A stretch of DNA of 64,000 nucleotides from Coriobacteriia bacterium (GTDB lineage Bacteria; Actinomycetota; Coriobacteriia; Anaerosomatales; JBAZZO01): contig JBAZZO010000006.1 of assembly GCA_041658765.1 (NCBI GenBank), positions 37,947-101,946 of the forward strand, given 5' to 3'. Every line of letters begins with the position of its first letter. Position 1 is the stretch's first letter. Both the position numbers and the translations under genes were made by a program. Below the pieces are notes generated by a model. That model saw only the letters and a list, made by a program, of their open reading frames with translations. It had not been told where the DNA came from and ran no database searches. Positions 45,602-59,816 of this stretch are shown piece after piece.

Positions 45602-46257
45602 TCGTGGTGCGCGCGAAACCTCTCGAGGAGGTCTTCGACATGGTCGTCGCTCACGAGCGAGTCCTTCTCGTGGGCTGCAACACGTGCGCCGCCGTCTCCT
45701 TGGCCGGCGGGGAGATGGAGGTCGCCACGCTCGTCGAGGCGCTCCGCTTGATGGCCGCGCGCCGCGGCCGCGCGATCGAGTTCACCGGCTCGGTCCTGCA
45801 GCGCCAGTGCGAGCCCGAGTTCCTCGAGGAGCTCGGGGACGAGGGGTACGACGCCGTGCTCTCGCTGGGGTGCGGCGCGGGCGTGGCCCTGCTCTCCGAC
45901 ACCACGAAGGTTCCGGTGTATCCGGCGCTCGACACCATGTTCATCGGCGCGGCCAAGGGATTCGCCTCGTGGCAGGCCGAGTGTTCGGCATGCGGCCAGT
46001 GCGTGCTCGGCCGCACCGCCGGCATCTGCCCGATCACGCGTTGCGCGAAGGGCATCATGAACGGCCCGTGCGGCGGCGTGAAGGACGGCCGCTGCGAGCT
46101 TGGCGACCGCGACTGCGCCTGGGTGCTCATCTACGAGCGTCTCGAGGCCCAAGGCCGCCTCGGCGAGTTCGGGCGGTTCGGCGAGGCGAAGGACCACTCC
46201 GTCCGCTCGAAGTGCGACGTGTGGGACATGAGCGACAAGGGGGGTGAGCCGAAGTGA
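45598..46257 (+). CDS. metV: methylene-THF reductase small subunit MetV (Cys-rich C-terminal-domain protein)
   Basis: 219 aa. CNTCAA...CSACGQCVLGRTAGICPITRCAKGIMNGPCGG is present. ATGA overlap upstream and GTGA overlap downstream. Confidence 0.85.
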   Translation: MIVVRAKPLEEVFDMVVAHERVLLVGCNTCAAVSLAGGEMEVATLVEALRLMAARRGRAIEFTGSVLQRQCEPEFLEELGDEGYDAVLSLGCGAGVALLSDTTKVPVYPALDTMFIGAAKGFASWQAECSACGQCVLGRTAGICPITRCAKGIMNGPCGGVKDGRCELGDRDCAWVLIYERLEAQGRLGEFGRFGEAKDHSVRSKCDVWDMSDKGGEPK

Positions 46258-47135
46258 CGTTGCGGGAAGCGCTGGAGTCCGGCGAGTTCGTCGTGACCTC
46301 CGAGGTCGGCCCGCCCAAGGGGACCGACATCTCGGAGATGCTCTCCGCCGCCGAGATGTTGCGCGGCCGCGTGCACGCGCTCAACGTCACCGACAACCAG
46401 GCGGCTGTCATGCGCCTGTGCACCTTGGCGGCCTGCGTCCATCTCAAGGAGCGCGGCTTCGATCCGGTGCTGCAGGTGACCTGTCGAGACCGCAACCGGC
46501 TAGCGATGCAGTCGGACCTTCTCGGCGCAGCCTCCTTCGGCATCACGAACGTGCTCGCGCTGACCGGCGATCACGTTGCTGTCGGGGATCATCCGCAGGC
46601 CAAGCCGGTCTTCGATCTCGAGTCCGTGCAGCTCCTGGAGGCGATCAGGGCGCTGCGGTCCGGTCACGACCTGGCCGGCAACGAGCTGCACGGCACGCCG
46701 GAGTTCTTCGCCGGCGCCGTCGTCACCCCTGACGCTCACCCGCTCGCGCCGCAGCTCGCCAAGTTCGAGAAGAAGGTGGCCGCCGGCGCGCGCTACTTCC
46801 AGACCCAGGCGGTCTACGACCCGGCGACGTTCCGCGGGTTCATGGAGTATGCGCACGGACTCGGCGCGAAGGTGCTCGCCGGCCTCGTCATCCTGCGCTC
46901 GGCGCGGATGGCACGCTTCATGACCAAGAACATCCCCGGCATCTCGGTGCCCCAGCCGCTCATCGACGAGCTCGATCGCGCGGAGGACCCCGTCGCCGTC
47001 GGCGTCGAGATAGCGGCCCGCTTCATCACTCAGACGCGCGATGTGTGCGACGGTGTCCACATGATGGCCGTGGGAGCCGAGCACCTCGTCCCCAGGGTGC
47101 TCGACGCGGCCGGGCTCGAAGGGGTGAGCACGTGA
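46254..47135 (+). CDS. metF: 5,10-methylenetetrahydrofolate reductase
   Basis: 293 aa. VTSEVGPPKG, ALNVTDNQ and the TIM-barrel MTHFR pattern are seen. Confidence 0.9.
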   Translation: MTLREALESGEFVVTSEVGPPKGTDISEMLSAAEMLRGRVHALNVTDNQAAVMRLCTLAACVHLKERGFDPVLQVTCRDRNRLAMQSDLLGAASFGITNVLALTGDHVAVGDHPQAKPVFDLESVQLLEAIRALRSGHDLAGNELHGTPEFFAGAVVTPDAHPLAPQLAKFEKKVAAGARYFQTQAVYDPATFRGFMEYAHGLGAKVLAGLVILRSARMARFMTKNIPGISVPQPLIDELDRAEDPVAVGVEIAARFITQTRDVCDGVHMMAVGAEHLVPRVLDAAGLEGVST

Positions 47136-47908
47136 AAGTAGCGGTCTCGGGCAAGGGCGGCGTCGGCAAGACCACACTCGCGGCGGGCCTCGCGCTGCTC
47201 TTCGCGGAGGCGGGCAGGCGGGTCATCGCCATCGATGCGGACCCCGACGCCAACCTCGCCATGGCCCTCGGCGCCACGCCCGAGGCCGCCGCGGCGTGCG
47301 TGCCGCTCGTCGAGGAGGACGAGCTCATCGAGGAGCGCACCGGCGCGGCCCCCGGCAGGGGCGGCATGTTCATCCTCGATCCCGACGTCTCCGACGTCGT
47401 CGAGCGCTGCGGCGTCACCTTCAACGGCGTGACCATGCTCAAGATGGGGACGGTGGAGCGCGGCGGTTCGGGATGCATGTGCTCGGAAGGCACCTTCCTC
47501 AAGGCGTTCATGCGCGATCTGCTCGTCGATCGTGACGATGTGGCCATCCTCGACATGGAGGCCGGCATCGAGCACCTCGGTCGCGGCACCGCCGAGGCGG
47601 TCGACGTGCTCATCGTGGTGATCGAGCCCGGCGGACGCTCGGTCCAGACGGCGCGCCAGGTCCGCGCGCTCGCGGCCGACATCGGCATCCGCGACGTCGT
47701 GGCGGTCGCGAACAAGGTCCGCGACGCCGACGATGCCGTGTTCGTGCGCGACGCGCTCGGCGACATCCCCCTGCTCGGCACGATGCCGCTGTGTGAGGGC
47801 GTCAGAGTCGCCGATCGCGAGGGGCGTCCTTCGTATCACGCCGACCCGGCCCTCGACGAAGCGCTGAGCGACATCGCGGGCGCGCTCGCGGCGCGGGTCG
47901 ACTGGTAG
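47132..47908 (+). CDS. cooC: CODH/ACS nickel-insertion accessory ATPase (CooC/AcsF family), copy 2
   Basis: GTG at 47132 overlaps the metF stop. SGKGGVGKTT and GSGCMC motifs are present. Confidence 0.85.
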   Translation: MKVAVSGKGGVGKTTLAAGLALLFAEAGRRVIAIDADPDANLAMALGATPEAAAACVPLVEEDELIEERTGAAPGRGGMFILDPDVSDVVERCGVTFNGVTMLKMGTVERGGSGCMCSEGTFLKAFMRDLLVDRDDVAILDMEAGIEHLGRGTAEAVDVLIVVIEPGGRSVQTARQVRALAADIGIRDVVAVANKVRDADDAVFVRDALGDIPLLGTMPLCEGVRVADREGRPSYHADPALDEALSDIAGALAARVDW

Positions 47909-47942
47909 CGGTCTCCAGCAACGATCAACGTCAGGAGGACAG

Positions 47943-48767
47943 ATGCTCGTCATCGGTGAGAAGGTCAACATCATGAGCAAGACCATCGGCCCTGCGATGC
48001 GTGAGCGCGACGAAGGGCCCGTGCGTGCCATGGCGCTCACCCAGGTGGAGGGCGGCGCCGACGTGCTCGACATCAACCTCGGCCCCGCCACCAGGGGCGG
48101 CCCCGAGATGATGGAGTGGGTCGTGAAGGTGGTGCAGGAAACGGTCCCCGAAACCCGTCTGTGTCTCGACACGATGAACCCCCAGGCGATGGAGGCGGGC
48201 CTGAGGGTCTGCAAGCTCCAGCCGATCATCAATTCGACGTCGGCCGAGCGTGCCCGTCTCGAGACGTACTTGCCGATGGCGAAGACCTACGAGGCCGAGA
48301 TCATCGGTCTGGCGATGACGGAGCACGGCGTCTCCCGCGACGCCAACGAGCGCATCGAGGCGGCCATGACGATCCTTGCCGCGATGATCGAGTTCGGCGT
48401 GCCGGCGGACCGCCTCTACCTCGACCCGCTCCTGCTCCCCGTGAGCGTGGCCCAGCAGCAGGCGCCCGAGGCGGCCGAGGCGATCGCCATGTTCGGTCAA
48501 CTCGACGAGCCGCCGCTGAAAACGACGGTCGGCCTCTCGAACATCTACAATGGCTGTCCGGAGCACGTGAAGTCGCCGCTGGCCGCGGCCCTGCTCGCGA
48601 TCATGATCCCCGCGGGCCTGACCTCGGCGATCATGGACCCCAACGACGAGCTCCAGATGATGGTCGCCCGCGCCGATCCGGCCGAACTCGAGCTGACCGA
48701 GTCGCTCGAGAAGTCGATGTCGGTGCTGCGGAACGAGACACTGTACTGCGACTCGTACCTGGACTAG
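47943..48767 (+). CDS. acsE: methyl-THF:corrinoid/iron-sulfur protein methyltransferase
   Basis: 274 aa with a pterin-binding barrel (IGEKVN..., DVLDINLGPA). Operon context supports the call. Confidence 0.9.
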   Translation: MLVIGEKVNIMSKTIGPAMRERDEGPVRAMALTQVEGGADVLDINLGPATRGGPEMMEWVVKVVQETVPETRLCLDTMNPQAMEAGLRVCKLQPIINSTSAERARLETYLPMAKTYEAEIIGLAMTEHGVSRDANERIEAAMTILAAMIEFGVPADRLYLDPLLLPVSVAQQQAPEAAEAIAMFGQLDEPPLKTTVGLSNIYNGCPEHVKSPLAAALLAIMIPAGLTSAIMDPNDELQMMVARADPAELELTESLEKSMSVLRNETLYCDSYLD

Positions 48768-48788
48768 CGAGAGGGCCCGGAGACGATC

Positions 48789-49292
48789 ATGGGTGAGTGC
48801 ACCTGCGCGACGGGGCGCGACGAGGGTTTCGACCCCGCGCTGCTCGATGCTGTGCTGGCGGAGCACGCCTCGACGGCCGACGCTCTCATCCCCCTGCTGC
48901 AGGCGACCCAGCGTGCGTACGGCTACCTGCCCGAGGACGCCATGCGGCGCATCGCCGTCGCGCTCGGCCGGCCGCTGTCGGCCGTCCTCGGAGTCGCGAC
49001 GTTCTACGCGCAGTTCCACCTCACGCCGCGCGGCCGGCGGATCGTGCGGGTGTGCCACGGCACCGCGTGTCACGTGAAGGGCGCGCTCGAGGTCACCGAG
49101 GCGCTCGTCGACGAGCTAGGTGTCGCCGTCGGCCGGACCGCCGACGACAGGAGCGTGACGCTCGAGTCCGTGGCGTGCGTGGGTTGCTGCGGCCTCGGCC
49201 CGATCGTCCTCGTCGACGACGAGCCGCACGGCGGTCTCGACGCCAAGAGCACGCGCAAGCTCGCCAAGAGCATCAAGCGGGGGAGGGACTGA
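48789..49292 (+). CDS. NuoE/HydC/FdsG-like [2Fe-2S] subunit
   Basis: 167 aa. The thioredoxin-like 2Fe-2S motif is VCHGTACHVKG...CVGCCGLGP. Confidence 0.85.
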   Translation: MGECTCATGRDEGFDPALLDAVLAEHASTADALIPLLQATQRAYGYLPEDAMRRIAVALGRPLSAVLGVATFYAQFHLTPRGRRIVRVCHGTACHVKGALEVTEALVDELGVAVGRTADDRSVTLESVACVGCCGLGPIVLVDDEPHGGLDAKSTRKLAKSIKRGRD

Positions 49293-51100
49293 TGTCGCCG
49301 ACCTCGAGCCGCGACCCCAGCGCCGTCATCCGCGTCTGCACGGGCTCCGGCTGCGTCATGAACGGCTCGTTGCGCTCGGCCGAGCGTCTCGAGGCCGCCA
49401 TCGCCGAGGCGGGCGCGAGCGAGAAGGTCCGCGTCGTGCGCACGGGCTGCCATGGCCTGTGCGAACTCGGCCCGATCACGGTGATCGATCCCGACCGCAT
49501 CTTCTATCCGAAGGTGACGGAGTCGAAGGCGGCCGCCATCGTCGACGCCCTGCTCGGCGGGGGCTCGCCGGTGACCGACTATCTCTACCGCGACACGGCG
49601 GACTCCGAGCCCGTGGAGCGCTACGAGGACATCCCGTTCAACCGGATCCAGCAGCGCATCGTGCTGAGGAACTGCGGCCTCGTCGACCCCGAGTCGATCG
49701 ACGACGCCGTCGGGCGCGGAGTCTACGAGGGCCTGCGGAAGGCACTGGCCGAGCTCTCGCCCGACGAGGTCATCGAGATCGTCCAGGGATCGGGTCTGCG
49801 CGGGCGCGGCGGCGCCGGCTTCTCCACTGGGATGAAGTGGCGTTTCACCCGCGACGCGGCCGGCGACCTCAAGTACGTGATCTGCAACGCGGACGAGGGC
49901 GACCCCGGCGCCTTCATGGACCGCTCCATCGCCGAAGGCGATCCGCATTCGGTCCTCGAGGGGCTCTCGATCGCGGCCTACGCCGTGGGCGCGAGCACCG
50001 GCTTCGTCTACGTGCGCGCCGAGTACCCGCTCGCGGTGAAGCGCATACGGAAGGCGATCGCCGACGCGCAGGAACGCGGACTCCTGGGGCAGAACGTGCT
50101 CGGCTCCGGCTTCTCCTTCCACCTGGAGGTGCGCGAGGGCGCCGGCGCGTTCGTGTGCGGCGAAGAGACGGCGCTCATGGCGTCGATCGAGGGCGGTCGC
50201 GGCATGCCGCGCTTCCGCCCGCCGTTCCCGGCGCAGTCCGGGCTGTGGGCGAAGCCCACGTGCATCAACAACGTGGAGACGCTCGCCAACGTGGGGTGGA
50301 TCGTCACCAACGGCGCCGACGCGTATTCGTCGATAGGCACCGGCACGAGCCACGGCACGAAGGTCTTCGCGCTCACCGGCCGGGTCCGGCGCACGGGTCT
50401 CGTCGAGGTGCCGATGGGCCGCACCGTCTCCGACCTCGTCTTCGAGGTGGGCGGCGGCTCCTCGTCGGCGAAGCCGATCAAGGCGGTCCAGATCGGAGGG
50501 CCTTCCGGCGGCTGCCTGCCGCTCGAGCTCTTCGACACCCCCATCGAGTACGATGCGCTCGCTGCCGCGGGCGCCGTGGTCGGGTCCGGCGGGATCGTGG
50601 TGGTCGACGACGGCACCTGCATGGTCGACCTCGCGCGCTACTTCCTCTCCTTCACCCAGGACGAGAGCTGCGGCAAGTGCGTCCCGTGCCGCATCGGCAC
50701 GAAGCGCATGCTCGAGCTCGTCACGCGCATCTGCGCGGGCGAGGGCGAGGAGGGCGACATCGAGAAGCTGGAGCGCCTCGCGAACGACGTGAAGGCGTCT
50801 TCCCTGTGCGGGCTGGGGCAGACCGCGCCCAACCCCGTGCTCACCACGCTGCGCTACTTCCGCCACGAGTTCGAGGAGCACATCCGCGAACACCGCTGTC
50901 GCGCCGGCGCGTGCAAGGTGCTCTCGACATTCGTCGTCGTCGCCGAAGCCTGCAGGGGGTGCGGCGTGTGCAAGAAGAACTGCCCGGTGTCGGCGATCTC
51001 CGGCCGGCTCAGGGAGGTCCACGAGATAGACTACGCGTTGTGCGTGAAGTGCGGGCAGTGCGAAGTCCACTGTCCGTTCGAGGCGATAGCACGCAGGTAG
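49292..51100 (+). CDS. NuoF/HydB/FdsB-like NAD(P)H-binding flavoprotein with extra N-terminal 2Fe-2S and C-terminal 2x[4Fe-4S] domains
   Basis: ATG at 49292 overlaps the upstream TGA. GLRGRGGAGFSTGMKW (FMN site), ESCGKCVPCRIG and C-terminal CRGCGVCKKNCP...CVKCGQCEVHCP are seen. Confidence 0.9.
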   Translation: MSPTSSRDPSAVIRVCTGSGCVMNGSLRSAERLEAAIAEAGASEKVRVVRTGCHGLCELGPITVIDPDRIFYPKVTESKAAAIVDALLGGGSPVTDYLYRDTADSEPVERYEDIPFNRIQQRIVLRNCGLVDPESIDDAVGRGVYEGLRKALAELSPDEVIEIVQGSGLRGRGGAGFSTGMKWRFTRDAAGDLKYVICNADEGDPGAFMDRSIAEGDPHSVLEGLSIAAYAVGASTGFVYVRAEYPLAVKRIRKAIADAQERGLLGQNVLGSGFSFHLEVREGAGAFVCGEETALMASIEGGRGMPRFRPPFPAQSGLWAKPTCINNVETLANVGWIVTNGADAYSSIGTGTSHGTKVFALTGRVRRTGLVEVPMGRTVSDLVFEVGGGSSSAKPIKAVQIGGPSGGCLPLELFDTPIEYDALAAAGAVVGSGGIVVVDDGTCMVDLARYFLSFTQDESCGKCVPCRIGTKRMLELVTRICAGEGEEGDIEKLERLANDVKASSLCGLGQTAPNPVLTTLRYFRHEFEEHIREHRCRAGACKVLSTFVVVAEACRGCGVCKKNCPVSAISGRLREVHEIDYALCVKCGQCEVHCPFEAIARR

Positions 51101-51142
51101 GTCCGGCCGGGTGGCCGAGCCTGTGAGAGTGAGGAGGACGGG

Positions 51143-51583
51143 ATGAAGGTCCGCGACATCATGACCCCGAGGGTGGTGTCCTGTCCGCCTTCGGCGACCG
51201 TCGCAGAGGCCGCGCGAGTGATGCGGGACGAGCGGGTCGGCTCGATCCTGGTCGTCGACGAGAAGGGCGTGCTCGTCGGGTTGCTCACCGACCGGCAGAT
51301 CACGCACGCCGTGGTGGCCGACGGGCTCGACCCCAAGACGGTCGCCGTCGACGAGTTCATGTTCACCGATTTCGTTCCTCTCGAGCCGGACATGGACCTG
51401 CTCACCGCCGTACGCCTGCAGAAGGAGCTCGCGATGCGCCGCCTCCCGGTGCTCGAGAACGGCGTGCCGGTGGGCATCATGTCGGTCTCCGACATCGCGG
51501 CGTTCGTGAAGGAGTGCATCGACGCGGTCCTCGTCGAGGGCGAGGTCCGCGTGCTCAGGCGCGCGGGCCGGAGCCACGGCTAG
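51143..51583 (+). CDS. CBS-pair domain protein
   Basis: 146 aa. It has two CBS motifs (VRDIMTPRVV..., GIMSVSDIA). Confidence 0.8.
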   Translation: MKVRDIMTPRVVSCPPSATVAEAARVMRDERVGSILVVDEKGVLVGLLTDRQITHAVVADGLDPKTVAVDEFMFTDFVPLEPDMDLLTAVRLQKELAMRRLPVLENGVPVGIMSVSDIAAFVKECIDAVLVEGEVRVLRRAGRSHG

Positions 51584-51601
51584 GGTCCGAGAGGGAGCAT
51601 C

Positions 51602-54319
51602 GTGAGCAAGCGGGTCGAGGAGAGGACGCTCGCGTTGACCGTCGACGGTCGCGCCGTCGGAGCGCGAGAAGGTTCGACGGTGCTCGAGGCGTGCTGCGAG
51701 GCGGGCGTCCACATCCCCACGCTCTGTCACGACCCGCGTCTCGCGCCCTTCGGCGCCTGCCGCCTGTGCGTGGTCGAGATCGAGGGCATGCGCGGCTACC
51801 CGACCTCGTGCACCACGATGGCCGCCGACGGCATGGTCGTCGCCACCGACACCGAGCGGTTGCGCCAGATGCGCACGACCATCATCGAGCTGCTCCTCTC
51901 CGACCACGACGTGGACTGTCTCACCTGCGAATCCAACGCCGCCTGCGGCTTGCAGGACCTCGCCTACGAGCTCGGTATCGAACACGAGCGCTACGGCGGC
52001 GACAGGCACGGCCCGCCCGCGCTCGGCGACGACCCGCTGATCGCCCGCGACTACTCCAAGTGCATCAGCTGCGGACGCTGCGTGCGCATCTGCGCCGAGG
52101 TGCAGGGATGCAGCGTCTACGGCTGGCAGGGTCGCGGTTTCGACTCGCTTCCCATGACGCCGTACGAGCTGCCGTTGGGCGAGTCGGGCTGCGAGTACTG
52201 CGGCCAGTGCGTCTCCACCTGCCCGGTGGGCGCGCTCACCGACCGCATCTCGCGCTTCGCCGGCCGCCCGTGGGAGACCGGGAAGGTGCGCACGATCTGC
52301 GGCTACTGCGGCGTGGGCTGCACCGTCGAGTACCGCGTGCGCGAAGGCCGCATCGTGGGTGCGAGCGCTCCGGTCGGCGTGGGCGTCAACGGCGGGAACC
52401 TCTGCGCGAAGGGGCGTTACGGTTGGAGCTTCGTCCACCACCCCGACCGCCTCACCGTGCCGCTCGTGCGCAAGGGCGGCGAGCTGGTCTCCTCGACGTG
52501 GGAGGAGGCCATCGGGCTCGTCGCGGCCGGTCTCGCCAAGGCGCGCGACGCCCACGGCCCGGACGCGGTAGGCGGCCTCGCGAGCGCCAAGTGCTCCAAC
52601 GAGGAGAACTACCTCTTCCAGAAGCTGCTGCGCGCGGGTATCGGCACGCATAACGTCGACCACTGCGCCCGCCTTTGACACAGCTCCACGGTGGCCGGTC
52701 TGGCCGCCACCTTCGGGAGCGGGGCGATGACGAACTCGATCGGCGATCTCGGCGAGGCCGACGTCATGCTCGTCGTCGGCTCCAACACCACCGAGGCGCA
52801 CCCGATCATCGGTATCGAGCTCAAGCGCGCCGCCGCGCGCGGGACGCGCATCGTCGTGATCGACCCGCGGCGCATCGCGCTCGTCGATCACGCCCGGAGT
52901 TGGCTGCGAATCCGCCCGGGCACGAACGTCGCGCTCTTCAACGCGATGGCGAAGGTCATCGTCGAAGAGGGTCTCGCCGACTCCGTCTTCATCGAGGCGC
53001 GCACCGAGGGTTTCGACGAGTTCGCGGCGCATGTCGCCTCCGTCGACCTCGACGAGGCGGCCGCGCTCACGAGCATCGGCGCAGACGCCATCCGCGAGGT
53101 CTCCCGCGCCTACGCGAACGCCGAGCGCAGCTCGATCGTCTACTGCATGGGCGTCACACAGCACACGTCGGGCACCGCGCAGGTGCGCGCTCTCGCCAAC
53201 CTCGCGCTGCTCTGTGGCCACATCGGCAAGCCCGGCACCGGCGTGAACCCGTTGCGCGGCCAGAGCAACGTGCAGGGCGCGTGCGACCTCGCGTGCCTGC
53301 CGAACTGCCTGCCGGGCTACCAGCCGCTCACCGATAAGAACGCGCTCGACCGCGTCTGCGACCTCTGGGAGAGCGAGCGCGAGCTGTCGACCGAGGCGGG
53401 ACTCACCGTGGTCGAGATGATCGACGCCGCCGCGCGCGGCGAGCTCAAGGCGCTCTACGTCATGGGAGAGAACCCGGTGCTCTCCGACCCCGACCAGGCG
53501 CACGTGGTCGAGGCGCTGGAGAACCTCGACTTCCTCGTGGTGCAGGACATCTTCCTCACGGAGACCGGCAGGCTCGCCGACGTCGTGCTCCCCGCCGCTA
53601 CGTTCCTCGAGAAGGACGGCACCTACACCAACACCGAGCGCCGCGTCCAGCTGGGACGGAAGGTCGTCGATCCGCCGGGCGAGGCGAAGACCGACTTCGA
53701 GATCGTCACGCTCGTCGCGAACGCGATGGGACTCGCGTGGGGCGAGGAGAGCCCCGAGGACGTGATGACCGAGATGGCCGCCGTCACCCCGCAGTACGGC
53801 GGCATCACCCATCGCCGCCTCGAGGAGGATGGCGGCCTGCAGTGGCCGTGCCCCGACGTCTCGCACCCCGGCACCCCGGTGCTCTACGCCGACGGCTTCC
53901 CGCGCGGCCGCGCCGCATTCGCCGTCGTCGACGACGAGCCGCCCGCCGAGCTGCCCGACGCACAGTTCCCGCTGGTGCTCTCGACGGGACGCCACCTGTG
54001 GAACTTCCACACCAACACGATGACGGGCCGCAGCGCCGGGCTCGCCGATCTCAACGCCGGGGGCTACGTGGAGATATCGCCCGAGGACGCCGAGTCGTTG
54101 TGCCTGTGCGAAGGGGACCGGGCCGAGGTGACGAGCAGGCGCGGCGCGTGCGTAGCGAGCGTGCGGATCGCTGTCGGGCTCGAGCCCGGCGTGGTGTTCA
54201 TGCCGTTCCATTTCGCCGACGCGCCGGCCAACCGCCTCACCAGCGGGGCCGTTCTCGACCCGATCTCGAAGATGCCCGGTCTCAAGACCACGCCGGTGCG
54301 GGTCTCGCGCGTCGAGTGA
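51602..54319 (+). CDS. fdhA: formate dehydrogenase alpha subunit, selenocysteine-containing (TGA 52676-52678 read as Sec), with NuoG-like N-terminal Fe-S domains
   Basis: Track ORFs 51602-52678 and 52691-54319 are in the same frame. The junction reads [30 protein letters not shown], the Sec/Cys-His active-site motif of Mo/W formate dehydrogenases. The N-terminus has 2Fe-2S plus 4Fe-4S motifs. Confidence 0.85.
52690..52711 (+). promoter_or_regulatory. SECIS-like hairpin downstream of the UGA
   Basis: GGUGGC-CGGUCUGGCC-GCCACC has a 6-bp outer stem starting 11 nt after the UGA. The inner part contains GGUC, as in bacterial SECIS apical regions. Folded by eye only. Confidence 0.55.
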
Positions 54320-56082: not shown

Positions 56083-56622
56083 CTACAGGCGACCCATCTC
56101 CTTGTCGCTGAAGACGACGCTTAGCTCGCGGGGCGACGGCGTGCCATATCGGGGCGTGTTGTACGAGTAGGCCACTGCGATCCACAGTCTGCCAGCGACC
56201 TCGAACGTGCGCTCAAGCGACGCGGCTCCCTTTCGTGTCCTCGCCGTGAGCACATGTTTGCCGCGGGGCAGCTTGAGGACGTAGTAGCCCTGATCAGGCG
56301 ATGGGCTGATCGCGCTGTCCCGAGCAGAGGGAAGGAGACGGTCGACAACAACCTGGCCGTCGACTTCGACCCGGATGTCGATGGTATCGCCGGGGATGCT
56401 CCCGTTGTCGACGAAGAGGACCACGTTGCCTGACGGGTCGATGAGACTCGAGGTTGTCTCGCTCGTTGTGCCTGCCGTCTCGTCCGTCGAGGAGGCCGGA
56501 GCGCTGGGGTGGGCCGCAGGTGCATCGGCAGACCGAGTTGCCGCGTCTTGGGTCGTACAGCCCGCGATGCCAAGAGCTACCACAAGGGTAAGCGACGCGA
56601 GCACCGATGTTCTCAGCTTCAT
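56083..56622 (-). CDS. lipoprotein, unknown function
   Basis: ATG at 56622. The signal peptide has a lipobox, LVVALGIAGC. A low-complexity linker is followed by a beta-rich domain. Confidence 0.65.
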   Translation of the reverse strand: MKLRTSVLASLTLVVALGIAGCTTQDAATRSADAPAAHPSAPASSTDETAGTTSETTSSLIDPSGNVVLFVDNGSIPGDTIDIRVEVDGQVVVDRLLPSARDSAISPSPDQGYYVLKLPRGKHVLTARTRKGAASLERTFEVAGRLWIAVAYSYNTPRYGTPSPRELSVVFSDKEMGRL

Positions 56623-56749
56623 CGCTGAATCCCGTCTGCGCCTAACAGCGTATATGCAGACCGTGTGATCTCCCGACACAGCTCCCGCTTTCTGCGTGAC
56701 ACGATACGCCTCGCGGCTTCGCGCAGGGGAGGTCACCCCGCCCCCGCCC

Positions 56750-56779
56750 TTGCGCCCCCGCCCTCCGCATGCCTAGAAT
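56750..56779 (+). promoter_or_regulatory. sigma-70-like promoter TTGCGC-N18-TAGAAT
   Basis: The -35 element is at 56750-56755 and the -10 element at 56774-56779. It sits just upstream of the T-box leader. Confidence 0.5.
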
Positions 56780-56785
56780 GGCCAC

Positions 56786-57019
56786 ACTTCGCAGCACCCA
56801 TAGCGCAGCAAGGACGTGAGGGAAGAGGGACCGCCGCCCGCGGGCCCGGCCACCCCTCCGAAGTCCCCCGCCAGGGCGGTCTCCCCGCCGGAAGCGGGAC
56901 GGTGTCCCGAGCCGTTACCAGACCGGGGTCGAGGCTCCGAACCGCCGCGTGCGCCAGGAGCGAAGACAGGTGGTACCGCGATGGCCCCTCGCCCTGTCCC
57001 AAGGCGGGGGCTTTTGTGT
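56786..57019 (+). promoter_or_regulatory. T-box riboswitch leader (tRNA-sensing transcription attenuator)
   Basis: The T-box core GGUGGUACCGCG lies at 56969-56980. The antiterminator has helix A1 GACAGG (56965-70) paired with CCUGUC (56993-98), a 7-nt bulge UGGUACC, and helix A2 GCGA paired with UCGC. A competing terminator follows. The Stem I base has a K-turn-like GUGA (56816-19) opposite GA (56939-40) and an AAGAG specifier-loop motif. Confidence 0.85.
56984..57019 (+). terminator. intrinsic terminator of the T-box leader
   Basis: The GCCCCUCGCC / GGCGGGGGC stem (56984-57011) is followed by UUUUGUGU. Its 5' strand overlaps the 3' strand of the antiterminator. Confidence 0.75.
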
Positions 57020-57065
57020 CCCCGGGCCGCGTGTCCGGGCTCGCCCTCAAGGGAGGTTTGGCGAG

Positions 57066-58331
57066 ATGGGTACCGCCCGCATCGTCTTCGACCGCTGGGA
57101 CGGCCGGTATGCCGCGCGCATGCGCGACGTGCGCTCCTCGGCCGTTCGCGACCTGTTCGCCGCAGCGTCCATGCCCGACATGATCTCGCTATCGGGCGGC
57201 ATGCCCGAGGTCTCCCGCGTGCCCGCCGACGTGGTCGCGCGCGTCGTGCGCGACGCCATCCGTCACGAGGGCGCCTCCGCGCTCCAGTACGGCTCCTCCG
57301 ACGGCCGTCCCGAGCTGCGGGCGATCATCGCCGAGCTGATGGCCGAGATCGGTGTGCGCATCTCGCCGGGCGACCTCATCGTGACCGCCGGCGCGCAGCA
57401 GGGCCTCGACCTCCTCGCGAAGATCTTCATCGATCCCGGCGACACGATCGTCACCGAGGGCCCGACGTACGTCGGCGCGCTCCAGGCGTTCTCCGCGTAT
57501 CAGCCCAACATGGTGTGCGTGCCCATGGACGACGACGGCATGCGAGTCGAACTGCTCGAAGCCGAGCTCGCGCGCCTCGGCCCGCGCGGCGCGAAGTTCA
57601 TCTACACGATCCCGAACTTCCAGAACCCCGCCGGCGTCACGCTCTGTGCGGAGCGCCGCCGCCGACTGCTCGAGCTCGCGCGCGAGTACGACATCCCCGT
57701 CATCGAGGACGACCCGTACGGGCGGCTGCGGTTCGAAGGCGGCCACATGAAGCCGCTGCGCGCGCTCGACGACGAGGTGATCTACCTCGGCACGTTCAGC
57801 AAGATCTTCGCGCCCGGCCTGCGCCTGGGCTGGATGACCGCCCCGAAGCCGATACTCGCGAAGGTGCTGCTCGCTAAGCAGGCCGCCGACCTGTGCGGGA
57901 GCAACTTCGCGCAGGTAGCGGCGGAACGCTACTTCCGCGGCACGCGGTGGCGCAGCGTGCTGCGCGACCTGACCGAGACGTACGCGCGACGCCGCGACGC
58001 CATGCTCGAATCCCTCGCCGAGCACTTCCCGCCGGAGGCGCACTGGACGAGGCCGGAGGGCGGCTTCTTCGTCTGGGTGACGCTGCCCGAGTTCCTCGAC
58101 ACCGGGGCGCTGCTGCCCGAGGCGGTCGAGCACGGAGTGACGTTCGTGCCGGGGACGGGCTTCTTCCCCGACGGGCGCGGGCGCAACCAGATGCGGCTGG
58201 CGTTCTGCTATGCCGAGCCCGACGCCATCCGCGAGGGCATCCGCCGTCTCGGCGAGGTGCTCGAGGGTCGGCTCGACCTCTACCGCGCGTTCGCCGCCGC
58301 GGGCGCGCTGCCGATCGCGAAGGGGGCTTAA
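57066..58331 (+). CDS. PLP-dependent aminotransferase (class I/II, ARO8/LysN-like, no HTH domain)
   Basis: ATG at 57066 follows GGGAGG. 421 aa. The pattern SGGMP...YG...G...LR and the PLP lysine context GTFSKIFAPGLRLGW are present. Confidence 0.85.
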   Translation: MGTARIVFDRWDGRYAARMRDVRSSAVRDLFAAASMPDMISLSGGMPEVSRVPADVVARVVRDAIRHEGASALQYGSSDGRPELRAIIAELMAEIGVRISPGDLIVTAGAQQGLDLLAKIFIDPGDTIVTEGPTYVGALQAFSAYQPNMVCVPMDDDGMRVELLEAELARLGPRGAKFIYTIPNFQNPAGVTLCAERRRRLLELAREYDIPVIEDDPYGRLRFEGGHMKPLRALDDEVIYLGTFSKIFAPGLRLGWMTAPKPILAKVLLAKQAADLCGSNFAQVAAERYFRGTRWRSVLRDLTETYARRRDAMLESLAEHFPPEAHWTRPEGGFFVWVTLPEFLDTGALLPEAVEHGVTFVPGTGFFPDGRGRNQMRLAFCYAEPDAIREGIRRLGEVLEGRLDLYRAFAAAGALPIAKGA

Positions 58332-58334
58332 GGC

Positions 58335-59285
58335 GTGAAAGAGAAGATTGCGGTCCTCATGGGAGGGCGCTCGCTCGAGCGCGAGGTCTCGCTGCGCAGC
58401 GGCGAGCGGGTGTGCGCCGCGCTGACCGCGGCGGGTTTCCACGTGCTCGCGCTCGACGTCGTGCCCGATCTCGTCGAGACGCTGCGCCGCGAGCGGCCCG
58501 ACGCGGTCTACGTCGCGTTGCACGGCCGCTTCGGCGAGGACGGCACCGTCCAGGAGCTCCTCGAGTTCCTCGGGATCCCGTACACCGGTCCCGGAGTCGT
58601 CGCCTCAGCGCTCGCGTGGGACAAGTCGCTCTCGAAGCGTCTCTTCATGCAGCACGACGTGCCTACGCCGCCGTGGGTGACGTTCACCGCCGACGCCTTC
58701 AAGGAGATGGGCGCGGCCACCGCGCTCGACCTCGTCCCCGGCGCGGTCGGCGGCTTCCCGGTCGCGGTGAAGCCCGCCGAGCAGGGCTCGGGCCTGGGCA
58801 TGTCGCGCGTCGAGGACGCGGAGTCACTCCCGGAGGCGCTGCTCACCGCTCTCTCGTTCGGGGACGCCGCGCTCGTCGAGCGCTGGGTCGACGGCGTCGA
58901 GATCGCCGTCTCGGTGCTCGACGGGCCCGAGGGAGTCTTCGTGCTGCCGCCGGTCGAGATGGTCGCGAAGTCGGGCATCTTCGACTTCTCGGCGATGTAC
59001 ACGCGAGGCGAGACGGAGTATTTCGTGCCGGCCCGTCTCGAGCCCGCGGTGATGGCCGAGGTGGAGCGGCTCGCCGCGCAGGTGCACGCGTTGCTCGGCT
59101 GCCGCGACGTGAGCCGCGTGGACATGGTCGTCGGCGCCGACGGCACGCCTTTCGTGCTCGAGTGCAACACCAGCCCGGGGATGACCGACACGTCGCTGCT
59201 GCCGATGGCCGCCGAGGCCGCCGGCATCGGCTTCCAGGACCTGGCGGTACGGCTCGTCCGGGCGGCGCTCGATAGGGTAAAATGA
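58335..59285 (+). CDS. ddl: D-alanine--D-alanine ligase
   Basis: 316 aa. GGRSLEREVSLRSG, HGRFGEDGTVQELLE and the ATP-grasp motif ...ECNTSPGMT are present. Confidence 0.9.
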   Translation: MKEKIAVLMGGRSLEREVSLRSGERVCAALTAAGFHVLALDVVPDLVETLRRERPDAVYVALHGRFGEDGTVQELLEFLGIPYTGPGVVASALAWDKSLSKRLFMQHDVPTPPWVTFTADAFKEMGAATALDLVPGAVGGFPVAVKPAEQGSGLGMSRVEDAESLPEALLTALSFGDAALVERWVDGVEIAVSVLDGPEGVFVLPPVEMVAKSGIFDFSAMYTRGETEYFVPARLEPAVMAEVERLAAQVHALLGCRDVSRVDMVVGADGTPFVLECNTSPGMTDTSLLPMAAEAAGIGFQDLAVRLVRAALDRVK

Positions 59286-59366: not shown

Positions 59367-59816
59367 ATGTGCTGTGACGATCGCAGGGGCGGCGGGTTCG
59401 GCGCGTTCCTGCTGGGCGGGATGCTCGGCGCCGTGCTGGGGCTGCTCTTCGCGCCCCGCTCGGGCAAGGAGAGCCGCGACATCCTCGCGGGCAAGGCCGA
59501 GGAGCTCATGACCGAGGGTAAGGACCTATACGAGACCGGACGCGAGAAGGTCGTCGAGACCTACGCCACCGGCAGGACGGTAGCGACCGAGAAGACCGAG
59601 GAGCTGCGCGAGAAGCTCGATGTCGCGCGCGAGAAGCTCAAGGAGCAGGTCGGACAGGTCTCTGGTGTCGCGAAGGAGAAGGCCGCCGAGGTGGGCGGGG
59701 TCGCTAAGGACCTTGCCACCAAGGTGAGCGGGGCCATGCGCCACGGCGCGGACGCCATCGAGGAGGCCGCGGACGGCGTGACGCCCGAGGCGTCCGCCGA
59801 GCCGCCGCTGGTCTGA
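59367..59816 (+). CDS. YtxH domain-containing protein
   Basis: 149 aa. The N-terminal TM segment GGMLGAVLGLLFAPRSGKESR is followed by a long charged helical region. Confidence 0.7.
   Translation: MCCDDRRGGGFGAFLLGGMLGAVLGLLFAPRSGKESRDILAGKAEELMTEGKDLYETGREKVVETYATGRTVATEKTEELREKLDVAREKLKEQVGQVSGVAKEKAAEVGGVAKDLATKVSGAMRHGADAIEEAADGVTPEASAEPPLV

What the first reader, a model, noticed from the sequence alone, without database searches (positions are those of the whole stretch)
56750..57065. Canonical T-box riboswitch in front of an aminotransferase-ddl operon
Seen directly in the sequence: a TTGCGC-N18-TAGAAT promoter and the T-box core GGUGGUACCGCG (56969-56980). The antiterminator has the textbook architecture. 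Helix A1 pairs GACAGG with CCUGUC, the 7-nt bulge is UGGUACC, and helix A2 pairs GCGA with UCGC. A mutually exclusive GC-rich terminator with a U-tract (56984-57019) lies 47 nt before the aminotransferase ATG. The Stem I base shows a K-turn-like GUGA opposite GA, and an AAGAG motif sits on the 5' side of the specifier loop. The 3' side of that loop reads GAGGCU (56931-56936), so the candidate specifier codons are GCU (Ala), GGC (Gly) or AGG (Arg). The UGGU bulge predicts a tRNA with discriminator A73. That fits tRNA-Ala and argues against tRNA-Gly (U73). An Ala-sensing T-box driving a transaminase plus D-Ala-D-Ala ligase would link tRNA-Ala charging to alanine supply for peptidoglycan. T-boxes are mainly a Firmicutes device for aminoacyl-tRNA synthetase and biosynthesis genes. 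In high-GC Gram-positives they are largely restricted to ileS, so this target is unusual.
Basis: partly seen in the sequence, partly recalled or inferred. Interest (0 to 1): 0.78.

Follow-up and report, generated by a model that had tools for sequence, protein, structure and literature searches.

The report
Short-stem alanine T-box with terminator
This is a genuine tRNA-sensing T-box riboswitch, most likely specific for tRNA-Ala, placed before an aminotransferase and D-Ala-D-Ala ligase operon in an uncultured Coriobacteriia lineage; it is unusual because it joins the truncated Stem I known from translational actinobacterial T-boxes to a transcription terminator, and the standard Rfam model does not detect it.

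Summary
The T-box is real. The 12-mer GGUGGUACCGCG, the A1 / 7-nt bulge / A2 antiterminator, the competing terminator with its U-tract and the promoter all lie at the stated coordinates. The whole leader is conserved in front of the same aminotransferase-ddl operon in 29 other species-level genomes of Anaerosomatales-type Coriobacteriia. Covariation is strong: 94% of cells are paired against 50% or less when partners are slid, and 17 pairs carry compensatory changes.

It is not canonical. Stem I is only 55 nt and has no distal tRNA-elbow platform. Rfam RF00230 misses the window and every orthologue tested, although it finds ordinary T-boxes in a positive control.

Its GAGGCU is the covarying 5' strand of Stem III. 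The likely specifier is the invariant GCC (56849-56851) followed by A. That still means alanine, but it rests on conservation and T-box rules, not on a direct test.

The platform is an intrinsic terminator 27-89 nt before the start codon, with a separate ribosome-binding site. The decoding module therefore resembles Class IV (usually translational, ileS), while the output is transcriptional.

An alanine T-box on an alanine aminotransferase gene (alaRT) is already predicted in some Clostridia. The phylum, the ddl target and the architecture appear to be new. I rate it a new variant of a known kind.

The parts
56750..56779 (+). Promoter: -35 TTGCGC (56750-56755), 18-nt spacer, -10 TAGAAT (56774-56779)
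   Evidence: Sequence. 27 of 30 orthologous leaders have TTGACC-N17-19-TAnnnT at the equivalent position, 28-54 nt upstream of Stem I. The window's own match was too weak for the consensus scan.
56780..56811 (+). 5' end of the leader, with a weak hairpin. Orthologues have a stronger 5'-terminal hairpin here.
   Evidence: RNAfold of the stretch between the -10 and Stem I gives -3.4 kcal/mol in the window and -8 to -20 kcal/mol in most orthologues. The sequence is not conserved. Its role is inferred (transcript stabilisation?).
56812..56866 (+). Stem I, truncated (55 nt). Base helix 56812-56815 with 56863-56866. Internal loop GU versus C plus 3-4 nt. Lower helix GAGGG 56818-56822 with CCCUC 56854-56858. 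Specifier loop: 5' side AAGA(G) from 56823, 3' side R-GCC-A-C 56848-56853. Upper helix GGG 56827-56829 with CCC 56845-56847, closed by a short cap. No AG bulge and no distal-loop platform.
   Evidence: RNAalifold predicts these three helices independently. The base helix has compensatory changes in 3 of 4 pairs. The two inner helices are invariant, so they rest on conservation only. In most orthologues only 13 nt lie between GAGG and RGCCA, which is too short for a double T-loop platform.
56849..56852 (+). Probable specifier codon GCC (Ala; 56849-56851) followed by the conserved purine A (56852)
   Evidence: RGCCACCCCU is invariant in all 30 leaders except R = G or A, which excludes GGC. It fits the rule that a purine follows the codon and the third-position C rule for T-boxes that have a Stem II (PMC7583486). 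The register is not proven; CCA is the alternative frame.
56867..56898 (+). Stem II. Lower helix CCCGC 56867-56871 with GCGGG 56894-56898. Invariant asymmetric internal loop CAG 56872-56874 versus GGAA 56890-56893. Upper helix GGCGG 56875-56879 with CCGCC 56885-56889.
   Evidence: The lower helix has compensatory changes (CG to UA in 8 sequences at one pair; GC and UA variants at another). The upper helix varies in length and sequence but stays paired. The internal loop occupies the S-turn position but is not the AGUA/GAA consensus.
56900..56928 (+). Stem IIA/B pseudoknot. IIA: CGG 56900-56902 with CCG 56912-56914. F-box CCGUUA 56912-56917. IIB: loop (U)CCCG 56905-56909 with CGGG(G) 56924-56928.
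   Evidence: The per-sequence parse shows IIB variants GCCGG/CCGGC, CCCGA/UCGGG, CCCGG/CCGGG, CCAGG/CCUGG, GCUCG/CGGGC and UUC-GGA/UCCGAA. RNAalifold and the pair counts give 4 of 5 IIB pairs with compensatory changes. The F-box matches canonical T-boxes (CCGUUAUC).
56931..56966 (+). Stem III (GCUCC 56934-56938 with GGAGC 56957-56961, variable top), flanked by conserved purines GAG (56931-56933) and GAAGA (56962-56966).
   Evidence: All three basal pairs covary, 100% of cells are paired, and up to 13 of 30 sequences change on both sides. Conserved purines flanking Stem III are a described T-box feature (PMC7583486, PMC7778990).
56965..56998 (+). Antiterminator. A1 GACAGG with CCUGUC; 7-nt T-box bulge UGGUACC (56971-56977; UGGU pairs with the tRNA 3' ACCA); A2 GCGA with UCGC; loop UGGCCCC.
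   Evidence: A1 position 3 covaries perfectly (UA in 16 sequences, CG in 14). The bulge and A2 are invariant in 31 leaders.
56984..57019 (+). Intrinsic terminator: hairpin 56984-57011 followed by UUUUGUGU 57012-57019. It uses the 3' strands of A2 and A1, so it excludes the antiterminator.
   Evidence: Terminator scan. The hairpin is -17.4 kcal/mol against -10.0 for the antiterminator. All 31 leaders have an equivalent hairpin (-15 to -25 kcal/mol) with 4-7 U in the next 8 nt, ending 27-89 nt before the ATG.
57049..57068 (+). Shine-Dalgarno AAGGGAGG (57049-57056) and the start codon ATG (57066-57068), both outside the terminator
   Evidence: Sequence. SD-like motifs lie within 20 nt of the ATG in all orthologues and are separate from the hairpin.
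57066..58331 (+). Class I/II PLP aminotransferase of the KAT-II / AadAT / multiple-substrate aminotransferase type
   Evidence: PF00155, 110 bits. Closest solved relatives are PH0207, T. profundus MsAT, T. litoralis alanine:glyoxylate aminotransferase and LysN. Orthologues are named 'PLP-dependent aminotransferase family protein' or '2-aminoadipate transaminase'. The substrate was not established here.
58335..59285 (+). D-alanine--D-alanine ligase (ddl), starting 3 nt after the aminotransferase stop
   Evidence: NF002378, 328.6 bits (cut-off 243), and TIGR01205, 276.5 bits. PF07478 and PF01820. Synteny with the aminotransferase holds in about 75 of 80 Coriobacteriia loci.

Best explanation
The 5' leader of the aminotransferase-ddl operon is a T-box riboswitch that works by transcription attenuation.

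Transcription starts at the promoter at 56750-56779. A short Stem I presents a specifier, most likely GCC followed by A, to the anticodon of tRNA-Ala(GGC). There is no distal platform to contact the tRNA elbow. Binding is presumably reinforced by Stem II and the IIA/B pseudoknot, as in actinobacterial ileS T-boxes.

If the tRNA is uncharged, its 3' ACCA end pairs with UGGU in the 7-nt bulge and stabilises the antiterminator (56965-56998). RNA polymerase then reads through into the aminotransferase and ddl. If the tRNA is charged or absent, the more stable terminator (56984-57019) forms and transcription stops.

The result is that falling tRNA-Ala charging raises expression of a transaminase, presumed to make alanine, and of the enzyme that builds the D-Ala-D-Ala dipeptide for peptidoglycan.

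Shown here: the sequence elements, their conservation, covariation of most helices, mutual exclusivity of the two 3' structures, and the operon.

Inferred: tRNA binding, the identity of the tRNA, the direction of regulation, and the enzyme's substrate.
For: - The T-box core and antiterminator are exact and unlikely by chance.
- The complete leader is conserved upstream of the same operon in 29 further species-representative genomes, and the 3' half in one more.
- RNAalifold recovers Stem I, Stem II, IIB, Stem III, A1 and A2 without guidance, and 12 of its pairs carry compensatory changes.
- For my 41-pair structure, 94.3% of cells are paired against 40-50% when partners are slid. 17 pairs have changes on both sides against 4-8 when slid. 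0 of 500 shuffles reach the observed covariation score.
- The pseudoknot is supported by six different complementary IIB variants.
- The F-box, the purines flanking Stem III and UGGUACC are invariant.
- A terminator is present in all 31 leaders. It is stronger than the antiterminator, is followed by a U-tract, and lies 27-89 nt upstream of an independent SD and ATG.
- A covariance model of the family scores the window at 135 bits. It also finds canonical T-boxes at 13-27 bits (E from 4e-6 to 0.035), aligned through Stem II, the F-box, Stem III and the antiterminator.
- For specificity: GCC-A is invariant, the base before it varies (G or A), UGGU is invariant, and the downstream gene is ddl.
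- The C rule and the purine rule are described in PMC7583486.
Against: - RF00230 gives no match at the gathering score or at E<=10.
- The two Stem I helices that frame the specifier never vary, so the codon register rests on conservation and rules, not on covariation.
- In the contiguous GAGGG/CCCUC pairing, one extra C lies between the purine A and the helix. TBDB's default frame (PMC7778990) would then read CCA.
- No paralogous T-box with the same scaffold and a different codon was found that could fix the register.
- No tRNA gene was available to check.
- The Stem II internal loop (CAG/GGAA) is not the consensus S-turn.
- No K-turn is conserved.
- The leader as a whole folds no better than shuffled sequence of the same composition (z = 0.38).
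- Published alanine T-boxes mostly use GCU, not GCC (PMC2494555, PMC7778990).
- There is no experimental evidence.
Confidence: 0.8

Rival explanations
1. It is the same T-box, but the specifier is read in another frame. The most plausible alternative is CCA (Pro, tRNA-Pro UGG, which also has A73). The operon would then respond to proline, or to two tRNAs.
For: If GAGGG/CCCUC pairs contiguously, the 3' side of the loop is R-G-C-C-A-C. TBDB's default rule takes positions 2-4 from the 3' end of the bulge (PMC7778990), which gives CCA. CCA is as invariant as GCC. UGGU is compatible with any tRNA that has A73.
Against: CCA would be followed by a pyrimidine (C) and would end in A. That breaks the conserved purine rule and the C rule linked to Stem II contacts (PMC7583486). 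The regulated operon contains ddl, an alanine-specific function. TBDB itself uses downstream gene function to choose between frames. A slipped pairing with C56856 bulged would put A56852 directly next to the helix, as in canonical T-boxes.
Confidence: 0.08
2. The element regulates translation, like other IDTM-less actinobacterial T-boxes, and the 'terminator' is really a sequestrator or has no role in termination.
For: T-boxes with short or intermediate Stem I and no elbow platform are reported to 'mostly regulate translation initiation' (PMC10482949, PMC11297988). The U-tracts are imperfect (for example UUUUGUGU, UUCUGUUGU).
Against: The hairpin does not contain the Shine-Dalgarno sequence. 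It ends 27-89 nt upstream of the ATG, and a separate SD sits 5-12 nt from the start in every leader. A U-rich tail of 4-7 U in 8 nt follows the hairpin in all 31 leaders. The hairpin is 6-17 kcal/mol more stable than the antiterminator, as in transcriptional T-boxes (compare PMC11297988).
Confidence: 0.07
3. One reading: a long canonical Stem I runs from about 56813 to 56945, with the specifier GCU at 56934-56936.
For: GAGGCU is present in the window and GCU is the commonest alanine specifier in Firmicutes (PMC2494555).
Against: 56934-56936 pair with 56959-56961 and covary (GC/AU/GU, CG/UA, CG/UA). GCU is replaced by GCC, GUC, ACC, AUC or GUU in orthologues. The enclosed region contains Stem II, the F-box and a pseudoknot, each with its own covariation.
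Confidence: 0.02
4. It is a chance resemblance or a decayed relic with no regulatory function.
For: There is no Rfam hit. One close relative (L031) lacks most of the element.
Against: The core is invariant and the helices show compensatory changes across 30 species-level genomes whose aminotransferase proteins are only 72-82% identical. The promoter and terminator are conserved with it.
Confidence: 0.01

Closest known systems
Class IV T-box riboswitches (for example Actinomyces odontolyticus ileS), as defined in PMC10482949
   Same: Stem I is of intermediate length and has no interdigitated double T-loop (elbow) platform. The specifier lies at the junction between two Stem I helices. Stem II and the IIA/B pseudoknot are present. 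The host belongs to the phylum Actinomycetota.
   Different: Known examples are ileS leaders that control translation initiation. Here the output is an intrinsic terminator, the codon is GCC (Ala) instead of AUC, and the target is an aminotransferase-ddl operon instead of a tRNA synthetase. I could not obtain a Class IV sequence for a direct alignment.
Class III / ultrashort ileS T-boxes (N. farcinica, M. tuberculosis, M. smegmatis; PDB 6UFM, 6UFG)
   Same: There is no elbow platform and the element depends on Stem II plus the IIA/B pseudoknot with an F-box (CCGUCA there, CCGUUA here). The discriminator has the same logic.
   Different: In those the specifier sits in a 5-6-nt apical loop of a very short Stem I with a K-turn. 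Here a 4-bp helix with a roughly 7-nt cap remains above an internal loop, and no K-turn is conserved. Their Stem II carries a GAA / (A)GUA-type S-turn, whereas here the loop is CAG / GGAA. They are translational and all regulate ileS (bioRxiv 10.1101/2023.02.28.530422).
Class I transcriptional T-boxes (B. subtilis tyrS type; Rfam RF00230)
   Same: It has Stem II, the IIA/B pseudoknot, Stem III, the T-box sequence, antiterminator/terminator competition, and a U-tract terminator upstream of a separate ribosome-binding site. My family model aligns to such T-boxes across these domains.
   Different: The distal half of Stem I (AG bulge, distal loop, elbow contact) is missing. RF00230 gives no score even at E<=10, whereas ordinary members score 105-127 bits.
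Alanine T-box regulon of Firmicutes (alaS; alaRT in C. butyricum, C. beijerinckii and C. tetani; PMC3766115 supplement 2)
   Same: Presumed tRNA-Ala sensing. In the three Clostridium species it controls an alanine aminotransferase gene.
   Different: Those are canonical long-Stem-I elements, mostly with a GCU specifier (PMC2494555). The aminotransferase here belongs to a different subfamily (KAT-II/AadAT type; the alanine aminotransferase model NF006230 scores only 101 bits against a cut-off of 534). ddl is not in any listed T-box regulon.
Staphylococcus aureus glyS T-box (PMC4574755)
   Same: In concept, a T-box that links the charging state of one tRNA family to both translation and cell-wall precursor supply.
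   Different: That one controls a tRNA synthetase whose product feeds pentaglycine bridges. This one directly controls a peptidoglycan precursor enzyme (Ddl). The resemblance is functional only.

Membership tests
T-box riboswitch (general family) | Conserved T-box sequence forming a 7-nt bulge UGGNACC between helices A1 and A2 (antiterminator or antisequestrator) | tested here: met
   GACAGG-UGGUACC-GCGA...UCGC-CCUGUC at 56965-56998. The bulge is invariant in 31 leaders. A1 shows a perfect Y/R compensatory switch (16 UA, 14 CG).
T-box riboswitch (general family) | A mutually exclusive alternative structure (terminator or sequestrator) that shares the 3' strand of the antiterminator | tested here: met
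   The hairpin 56984-57011 uses UCGC and CCUG of A2 and A1. The equivalent hairpin is present in all 31 leaders at -15 to -25 kcal/mol, against -7 to -10.5 for the antiterminator.
T-box riboswitch (general family) | Stem I with a specifier loop carrying a codon followed by a purine | tested here: inconclusive
   The internal loop AAGA / R-GCC-A-C between two invariant helices is predicted by RNAalifold. The framing helices never vary, so there is no covariation test. No paralogue or tRNA was available to fix the register.
T-box riboswitch (general family) | Stem IIA/B pseudoknot containing the F-box (CCGUUA-like) | tested here: met
   CCGUUA at 56912-56917. IIB pairing is kept through six different compensatory variants. 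4 of 5 IIB pairs change on both sides.
T-box riboswitch (general family) | Stem II with an S-turn (loop E) motif that provides a purine string | tested here: inconclusive
   Stem II is present and covaries. The invariant internal loop CAG / GGAA, within a GGAAG purine run, occupies the right position. It does not match the GAA / AGUA arrangement seen in a canonical control (L156).
T-box riboswitch (general family) | Stem III flanked by conserved purines next to the antiterminator | tested here: met
   GAG-[Stem III]-GAAGA is invariant. The basal Stem III pairs are 100% paired and all three covary.
T-box riboswitch (general family) | Match to Rfam RF00230 at the gathering score (93 bits) | tested here: not met
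   No hit in the window, at E<=10 on 56650-57150, in 20 orthologous loci, or at E<=10 on L002. In the positive control, five ordinary T-boxes score 105-127 bits. This is a failure of the model's coverage, since the Stem I half of the model has no counterpart here. It is not a failure of the mechanistic features.
T-box riboswitch (general family) | Readthrough or expression that depends on uncharged cognate tRNA | not testable with these tools
   This needs in vitro transcription or reporter assays.
Class I (tyrS-type) transcriptional T-box | Long Stem I with a distal interdigitated double T-loop platform (AG bulge plus distal loop) that contacts the tRNA elbow | tested here: not met
   In most orthologues only 13 nt (a 4-bp helix plus a roughly 7-nt loop) lie above the specifier loop, and 19 nt in the window. 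The whole of Stem I is 55 nt.
Class I (tyrS-type) transcriptional T-box | K-turn (GA motif) at the base of Stem I | tested here: not met
   GUGA is invariant, but the opposing 3'-strand GA occurs in only some sequences (it is GC, AU, AC, CA or UA in others). GA of GUGA is predicted to pair by Watson-Crick with UC.
Class III/IV (IDTM-less actinobacterial) T-box | Short or intermediate Stem I without the platform, specifier in an apical loop (III) or at a two-helix junction (IV), and Stem II plus IIA/B required | tested here: met
   The architecture fits the Class IV description in PMC10482949. The comparison is with the published description only; no Class IV sequence was available to align.
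Class III/IV (IDTM-less actinobacterial) T-box | Translational output: a sequestrator that occludes the Shine-Dalgarno sequence | tested here: not met
   The SD lies outside the hairpin and 27-89 nt downstream of it. A U-tract follows the hairpin.
Class III/IV (IDTM-less actinobacterial) T-box | Isoleucine specifier (AUC) upstream of ileS | tested here: not met
   The candidate codon is GCC. The downstream genes are an aminotransferase and ddl.

The most novel reading that the evidence does not exclude
This may be the first recognised family of T-boxes that lack the tRNA-elbow platform yet act co-transcriptionally through an intrinsic terminator. It would also be the first such element specific for tRNA-Ala, and the first T-box placed directly over D-Ala-D-Ala ligase. 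If so, anticodon capture by the Stem I / Stem II groove alone is fast enough for a kinetic, transcription-coupled decision. The basal Coriobacteriia would then preserve an evolutionary intermediate between Firmicutes-type transcriptional T-boxes and actinobacterial translational ones.
Probability: 0.45. Interest if true: 0.68.

Novelty: new variant of a known kind. Interest (0 to 1): 0.55.

Why it matters
- **Mechanism.** The field links a long Stem I with an elbow contact to transcriptional control, and a short Stem I to slower, translational control. The argument is that a co-transcriptional decision needs rapid tRNA capture (PMC11297988, PMC10482949). A conserved natural family that joins a platform-less decoding module to a terminator would be a ready test case for that idea.
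- **Regulon.** It would extend T-box control in Actinomycetota beyond ileS. It would also tie tRNA-Ala charging directly to a peptidoglycan precursor enzyme.
- **Annotation.** Rfam-based annotation misses the whole clade, so T-box counts in high-GC and uncultured lineages are probably underestimates.
- **Gene function.** The element gives a functional hint (alanine) for a widespread and poorly characterised aminotransferase that is syntenic with ddl throughout the Coriobacteriia.

Tried and rejected
- **Rfam.** I ran RF00230 at the gathering score on the whole window and on 20 orthologues, and permissively on two short regions. All were negative. My first positive control failed because the 19 viral loci I chose were chance 14-mer matches. 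The second control, on loci with real antiterminators, worked.
- **Thermodynamic signal.** The whole leader folds no better than shuffled sequence (z = 0.38). This is uninformative at 75% GC.
- **Fixing the codon register through a paralogue.** I scanned the metagenome collection for the same Stem I scaffold with a codon not starting with G. All 35 hits were chance matches with no T-box downstream.
- **Other T-boxes in held sequence.** A search of 604 kb found none.
- **tRNA genes.** There are none in the window or in 32 loci.
- **Register from the family model.** I hoped R1 would align canonical Stem I specifiers onto GCC-A, but it skipped the canonical Stem I.
- **L140.** I considered it as a second short-stem transcriptional example. 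It has a normal long Stem I that scores just under Rfam's threshold.
- **K-turn readings of GUGA...GA.** I rejected these because the 3' GA is not conserved.
- **Inaccessible sources.** Sherwood 2015 (PMC4313828) and Vitreschak 2008 (PMC2271356) are not held, no supplementary sequences are held for PMC11297988, and TBDB records could not be queried. Prior description therefore cannot be fully excluded.
- **Translation error.** My first translation started one base late. I corrected it.
Full report
**1. What is in the sequence**

- The promoter is TTGCGC (56750-56755), an 18-nt spacer and TAGAAT (56774-56779).
- The T-box core GGTGGTACCGCG is at 56969-56980.
- The antiterminator has A1 GACAGG (56965-56970) pairing with CCUGUC (56993-56998), the 7-nt bulge UGGUACC (56971-56977), and A2 GCGA (56978-56981) pairing with UCGC (56989-56992).
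- A G+C-rich hairpin (56984-57011) is followed by UUUUGUGU (57012-57019), which ends 47 nt before the ATG at 57066.

The exact 12-mer is expected 0.01 times per window. The full antiterminator pattern did not occur in 100 shuffles. The terminator scan finds the hairpin independently.

The downstream genes are a class I/II PLP aminotransferase (57066-58331) and, 3 nt later, D-Ala-D-Ala ligase (58335-59285; NF002378 at 328.6 bits against a cut-off of 243). The upstream gene is divergent, so the 443-nt intergenic region belongs to this operon's leader.

**2.

Rfam RF00230 gives no hit in four separate tests:
- at the gathering score over the whole window;
- at E<=10 with permissive filters on 56650-57150;
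- at the gathering score in 20 orthologous loci;
- at E<=10 on one orthologue, L002.

My first attempt at a positive control was flawed. The 19 loci I picked were chance 14-mer matches. With eight loci that show a real antiterminator, the same tool found RF00230 in five of them at 105-127 bits, against a gathering score of 93. The negative is therefore a property of this RNA.

In the other direction, I built a covariance model from this family (R1). It scores the window at 135 bits and finds those canonical T-boxes at 13-27 bits (E from 4e-6 to 0.035). It aligns them through Stem II, the F-box, Stem III and the antiterminator, but not through Stem I. This RNA is thus related to canonical T-boxes everywhere except Stem I.

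**3. Related sequences**

The window comes from a Coriobacteriia MAG of about 69% GC. A scan of species-representative genomes with the aminotransferase returned 80 loci.

In loci whose protein is 72-82% identical (Anaerosomatales-type MAGs), the core AAGAYAGGTGGTACCGCG lies 70-136 nt upstream of the start in 30 of the 31 loci that have upstream sequence. It is absent from all 48 loci at 62% identity or less (Eggerthellaceae, Atopobiaceae and related).

The aminotransferase-ddl pairing itself is conserved in about 75 of the 80 loci. The operon is therefore class-wide, while the riboswitch is specific to one clade.

There are two exceptions among the close relatives:
- L031 keeps the promoter and terminator but lacks everything from Stem I to the middle of the T-box.
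- L029 is disrupted at a contig end.

**4. Architecture from 30 aligned leaders** (alignment A2)

RNAalifold, without guidance, predicts all of the following:
- a three-part Stem I: base helix, GAGGG/CCCUC, and GGGC/GCCC;
- the base of Stem II;
- the IIB pseudoknot helix;
- the base of Stem III;
- A1 and A2 with the 7-nt bulge.

I counted pairs for a 41-pair structure. The results against the two controls were:

| Measure | Observed | Control |
|---|---|---|
| Cells forming a standard pair | 94.3% | 40-50% when partners are slid |
| Pairs with changes on both sides | 17 | 4-8 when slid |
| Shuffles reaching the observed covariation score | 0 of 500 | n/a |

Particular points:
- One Stem II pair switches CG to UA in 8 sequences.
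- Stem III's three basal pairs all covary and are 100% paired.
- A1 shows a clean GAYAGG/CCURUC switch (16 sequences against 14).
- Parsing each sequence separately shows the IIA/B pseudoknot kept through GCCGG/CCGGC, CCCGA/UCGGG, CCCGG/CCGGG, CCAGG/CCUGG, GCUCG/CGGGC and UUC-GGA/UCCGAA.
- The F-box CCGUUA (56912-56917) and the purines flanking Stem III (GAG ... GAAGA) are invariant.

The two inner Stem I helices never vary, so they are supported by conservation only.

**5.

In the alignment, GAG is the conserved purine flank of Stem III. GCU (56934-56936) pairs with 56959-56961 and is replaced by GCC, GUC, ACC, AUC or GUU in orthologues, with compensating changes on the other strand. It cannot be a specifier.

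The real Stem I is only 55 nt long (56812-56866). Above the specifier loop there is just a 4-bp helix and a cap of about 7 nt (13 nt in most orthologues). That leaves no room for the AG bulge and distal-loop platform that contacts the tRNA elbow.

The 'K-turn' is not supported either. The 3'-strand GA is not conserved, and the GA of GUGA is predicted to pair with UC.

**6. Specifier**

The 3' side of the loop reads R-GCC-A-C. Everything is invariant except R, which is G or A, so GGC is excluded.

GCC followed by A satisfies two rules described in PMC7583486. The first is that a purine follows the codon. The second is the C rule, which is attributed to Stem II contacts with tRNA G34. UGGU predicts discriminator A73. 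The regulated operon contains ddl. Together these favour tRNA-Ala(GGC).

The alternative frame, CCA (Pro), would be TBDB's default if the lower helix pairs contiguously. It breaks both rules and does not fit the target genes.

I could not settle the register directly. A metagenome scan for the same scaffold with another codon returned only chance hits. No other T-box exists in the 604 kb I hold, and no tRNA genes were available. I put alanine at roughly 85%.

**7. Expression platform**

In all 31 leaders the hairpin that consumes the 3' strands of A2 and A1 has these properties:
- it has a free energy of -15 to -25 kcal/mol, against -7 to -10.5 for the antiterminator;
- it is followed by 4-7 U in the next 8 nt;
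- it ends 27-89 nt before the start codon;
- a separate Shine-Dalgarno sequence lies next to the start codon.

This is the logic of transcription attenuation. It is not sequestration of the ribosome-binding site.

The promoter is supported by conservation: TTGACC-N17-19-TAnnnT occurs in 27 of 30 orthologues.

**8. Comparison with known T-boxes**

PMC10482949 defines four classes. Class I (tyrS) and Class II (glyQS) have a long Stem I with the elbow platform and are generally transcriptional. Class III (N. farcinica ileS) and Class IV (A. odontolyticus ileS) lack the platform and 'mostly regulate translation initiation'.

Class IV is described as having a Stem I of intermediate length with the specifier at the junction of two helices. 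That is what is seen here. The ultrashort class is said to regulate only ileS (bioRxiv 10.1101/2023.02.28.530422). TBDB likewise equates a truncated Stem I with translational control in Actinobacteria (PMC7778990).

The element here therefore combines a Class IV-like decoding module with a Class I-like terminator, an alanine codon and target genes that are not tRNA synthetases.

On the regulon side, the 93-genome survey in PMC3766115 (supplement 2) lists only ileS for Actinobacteria. For alanine it lists alaS, plus alaRT (alanine aminotransferase) in three Clostridium species. ddl never appears. An alanine T-box on a transaminase thus has a precedent. The enzyme here is of a different subfamily, however: its closest solved relatives are PH0207, MsAT, T. 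litoralis alanine:glyoxylate aminotransferase and LysN. Alanine T-boxes in Firmicutes mostly use GCU (PMC2494555, PMC7778990), whereas this one uses GCC.

**9. Verdict**

This is a genuine, conserved T-box riboswitch. It most likely senses tRNA-Ala and acts by transcription termination. The label 'canonical', the specifier site and the K-turn do not.

I found no description of such an element in the literature I could search. I therefore rate it a new variant of a known kind, of moderate interest (0.55). The main value lies in three things: a natural test of whether a platform-less T-box can make a co-transcriptional decision, a direct link between tRNA-Ala charging and D-Ala-D-Ala synthesis, and a documented blind spot of RF00230.

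Noticed in passing
L031:2870-2965 (CAWFNW010000002.1): This is a close relative (aminotransferase 78% identical). It keeps the promoter (TTGACC...TACGGT) and the terminator with its U-tract. It lacks the whole decoding module, Stem III and the 5' half of the T-box; the sequence jumps to ...ACCGCGACGACCCUCGCCCUGUC. It is either a natural deletion, which would leave a bare terminator in front of the operon, or a collapse in a long-read assembly.
   Followed up: partly
window 51602-54319 (+), stop codon at 52676-52678: A formate dehydrogenase alpha subunit (Fe-S domains plus molybdopterin oxidoreductase) appears as two ORFs in the same frame, separated by TGA within VDHCARL-U-HSSTVAGL. This is the classic selenocysteine site, so it is one selenoprotein gene and not a pseudogene. 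I did not look for a SECIS element.
   Followed up: partly
window 46254-54319 (+): A Wood-Ljungdahl-type gene cluster lies just upstream of the finding. It contains MTHFR, a CooC/ParA-like ATPase, a pterin-binding (AcsE-like) methyltransferase, a Nuo51/HydB-like flavoprotein, a CBS-domain protein and formate dehydrogenase.
   Followed up: partly
window 49070-54211 (-): A 1713-aa ORF with no Pfam match runs antisense to plus-strand genes with high GC3. It is almost certainly a shadow ORF typical of high-GC DNA and not a gene.
   Followed up: partly
window 56083-56622 (-): The divergent upstream gene begins MKLRTSVLASLTLVVALGIAGC, a lipoprotein signal peptide with a lipobox. It has no Pfam or NCBIfam match. 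Its promoter must share the 443-nt intergenic region with the T-box promoter.
   Followed up: no
window 56780-56811 and the equivalent region of L001-L028: Most orthologous leaders have a stable hairpin (-8 to -20 kcal/mol) of variable sequence between the predicted transcription start and Stem I. It is weak in the window (-3.4 kcal/mol). It may be a 5'-end stabiliser and does not seem to be part of the conserved riboswitch core.
   Followed up: partly
window 59367-59816 (+) and L001-L031: A YtxH-like protein (PF12732) follows ddl in every locus of the T-box clade but not in the Eggerthellaceae-type loci (one weak, distant match in L043). I did not examine whether it belongs to the same transcript.
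   Followed up: no
L032-L080 (Eggerthellaceae, Atopobiaceae and related): The aminotransferase-ddl gene pair is conserved across the whole class, but these lineages have no T-box and no Rfam-recognised leader upstream. How the operon is regulated there is unknown.
   Followed up: partly
L029:1-20 (-) and L029:53-160: The contig end carries an inverted copy of the first 20 positions of the leader model, and the 5' half of the leader cannot be aligned. This looks like a palindromic contig-end assembly artefact.
   Followed up: no
L140:3150-3345 (-) (IMG/VR contig, about 60% GC): This is a T-box with a normal long Stem I, an antiterminator and a terminator, yet it falls below RF00230's gathering score of 93 bits. 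It is another sign that the Rfam threshold loses T-boxes in G+C-rich genomes.
   Followed up: partly
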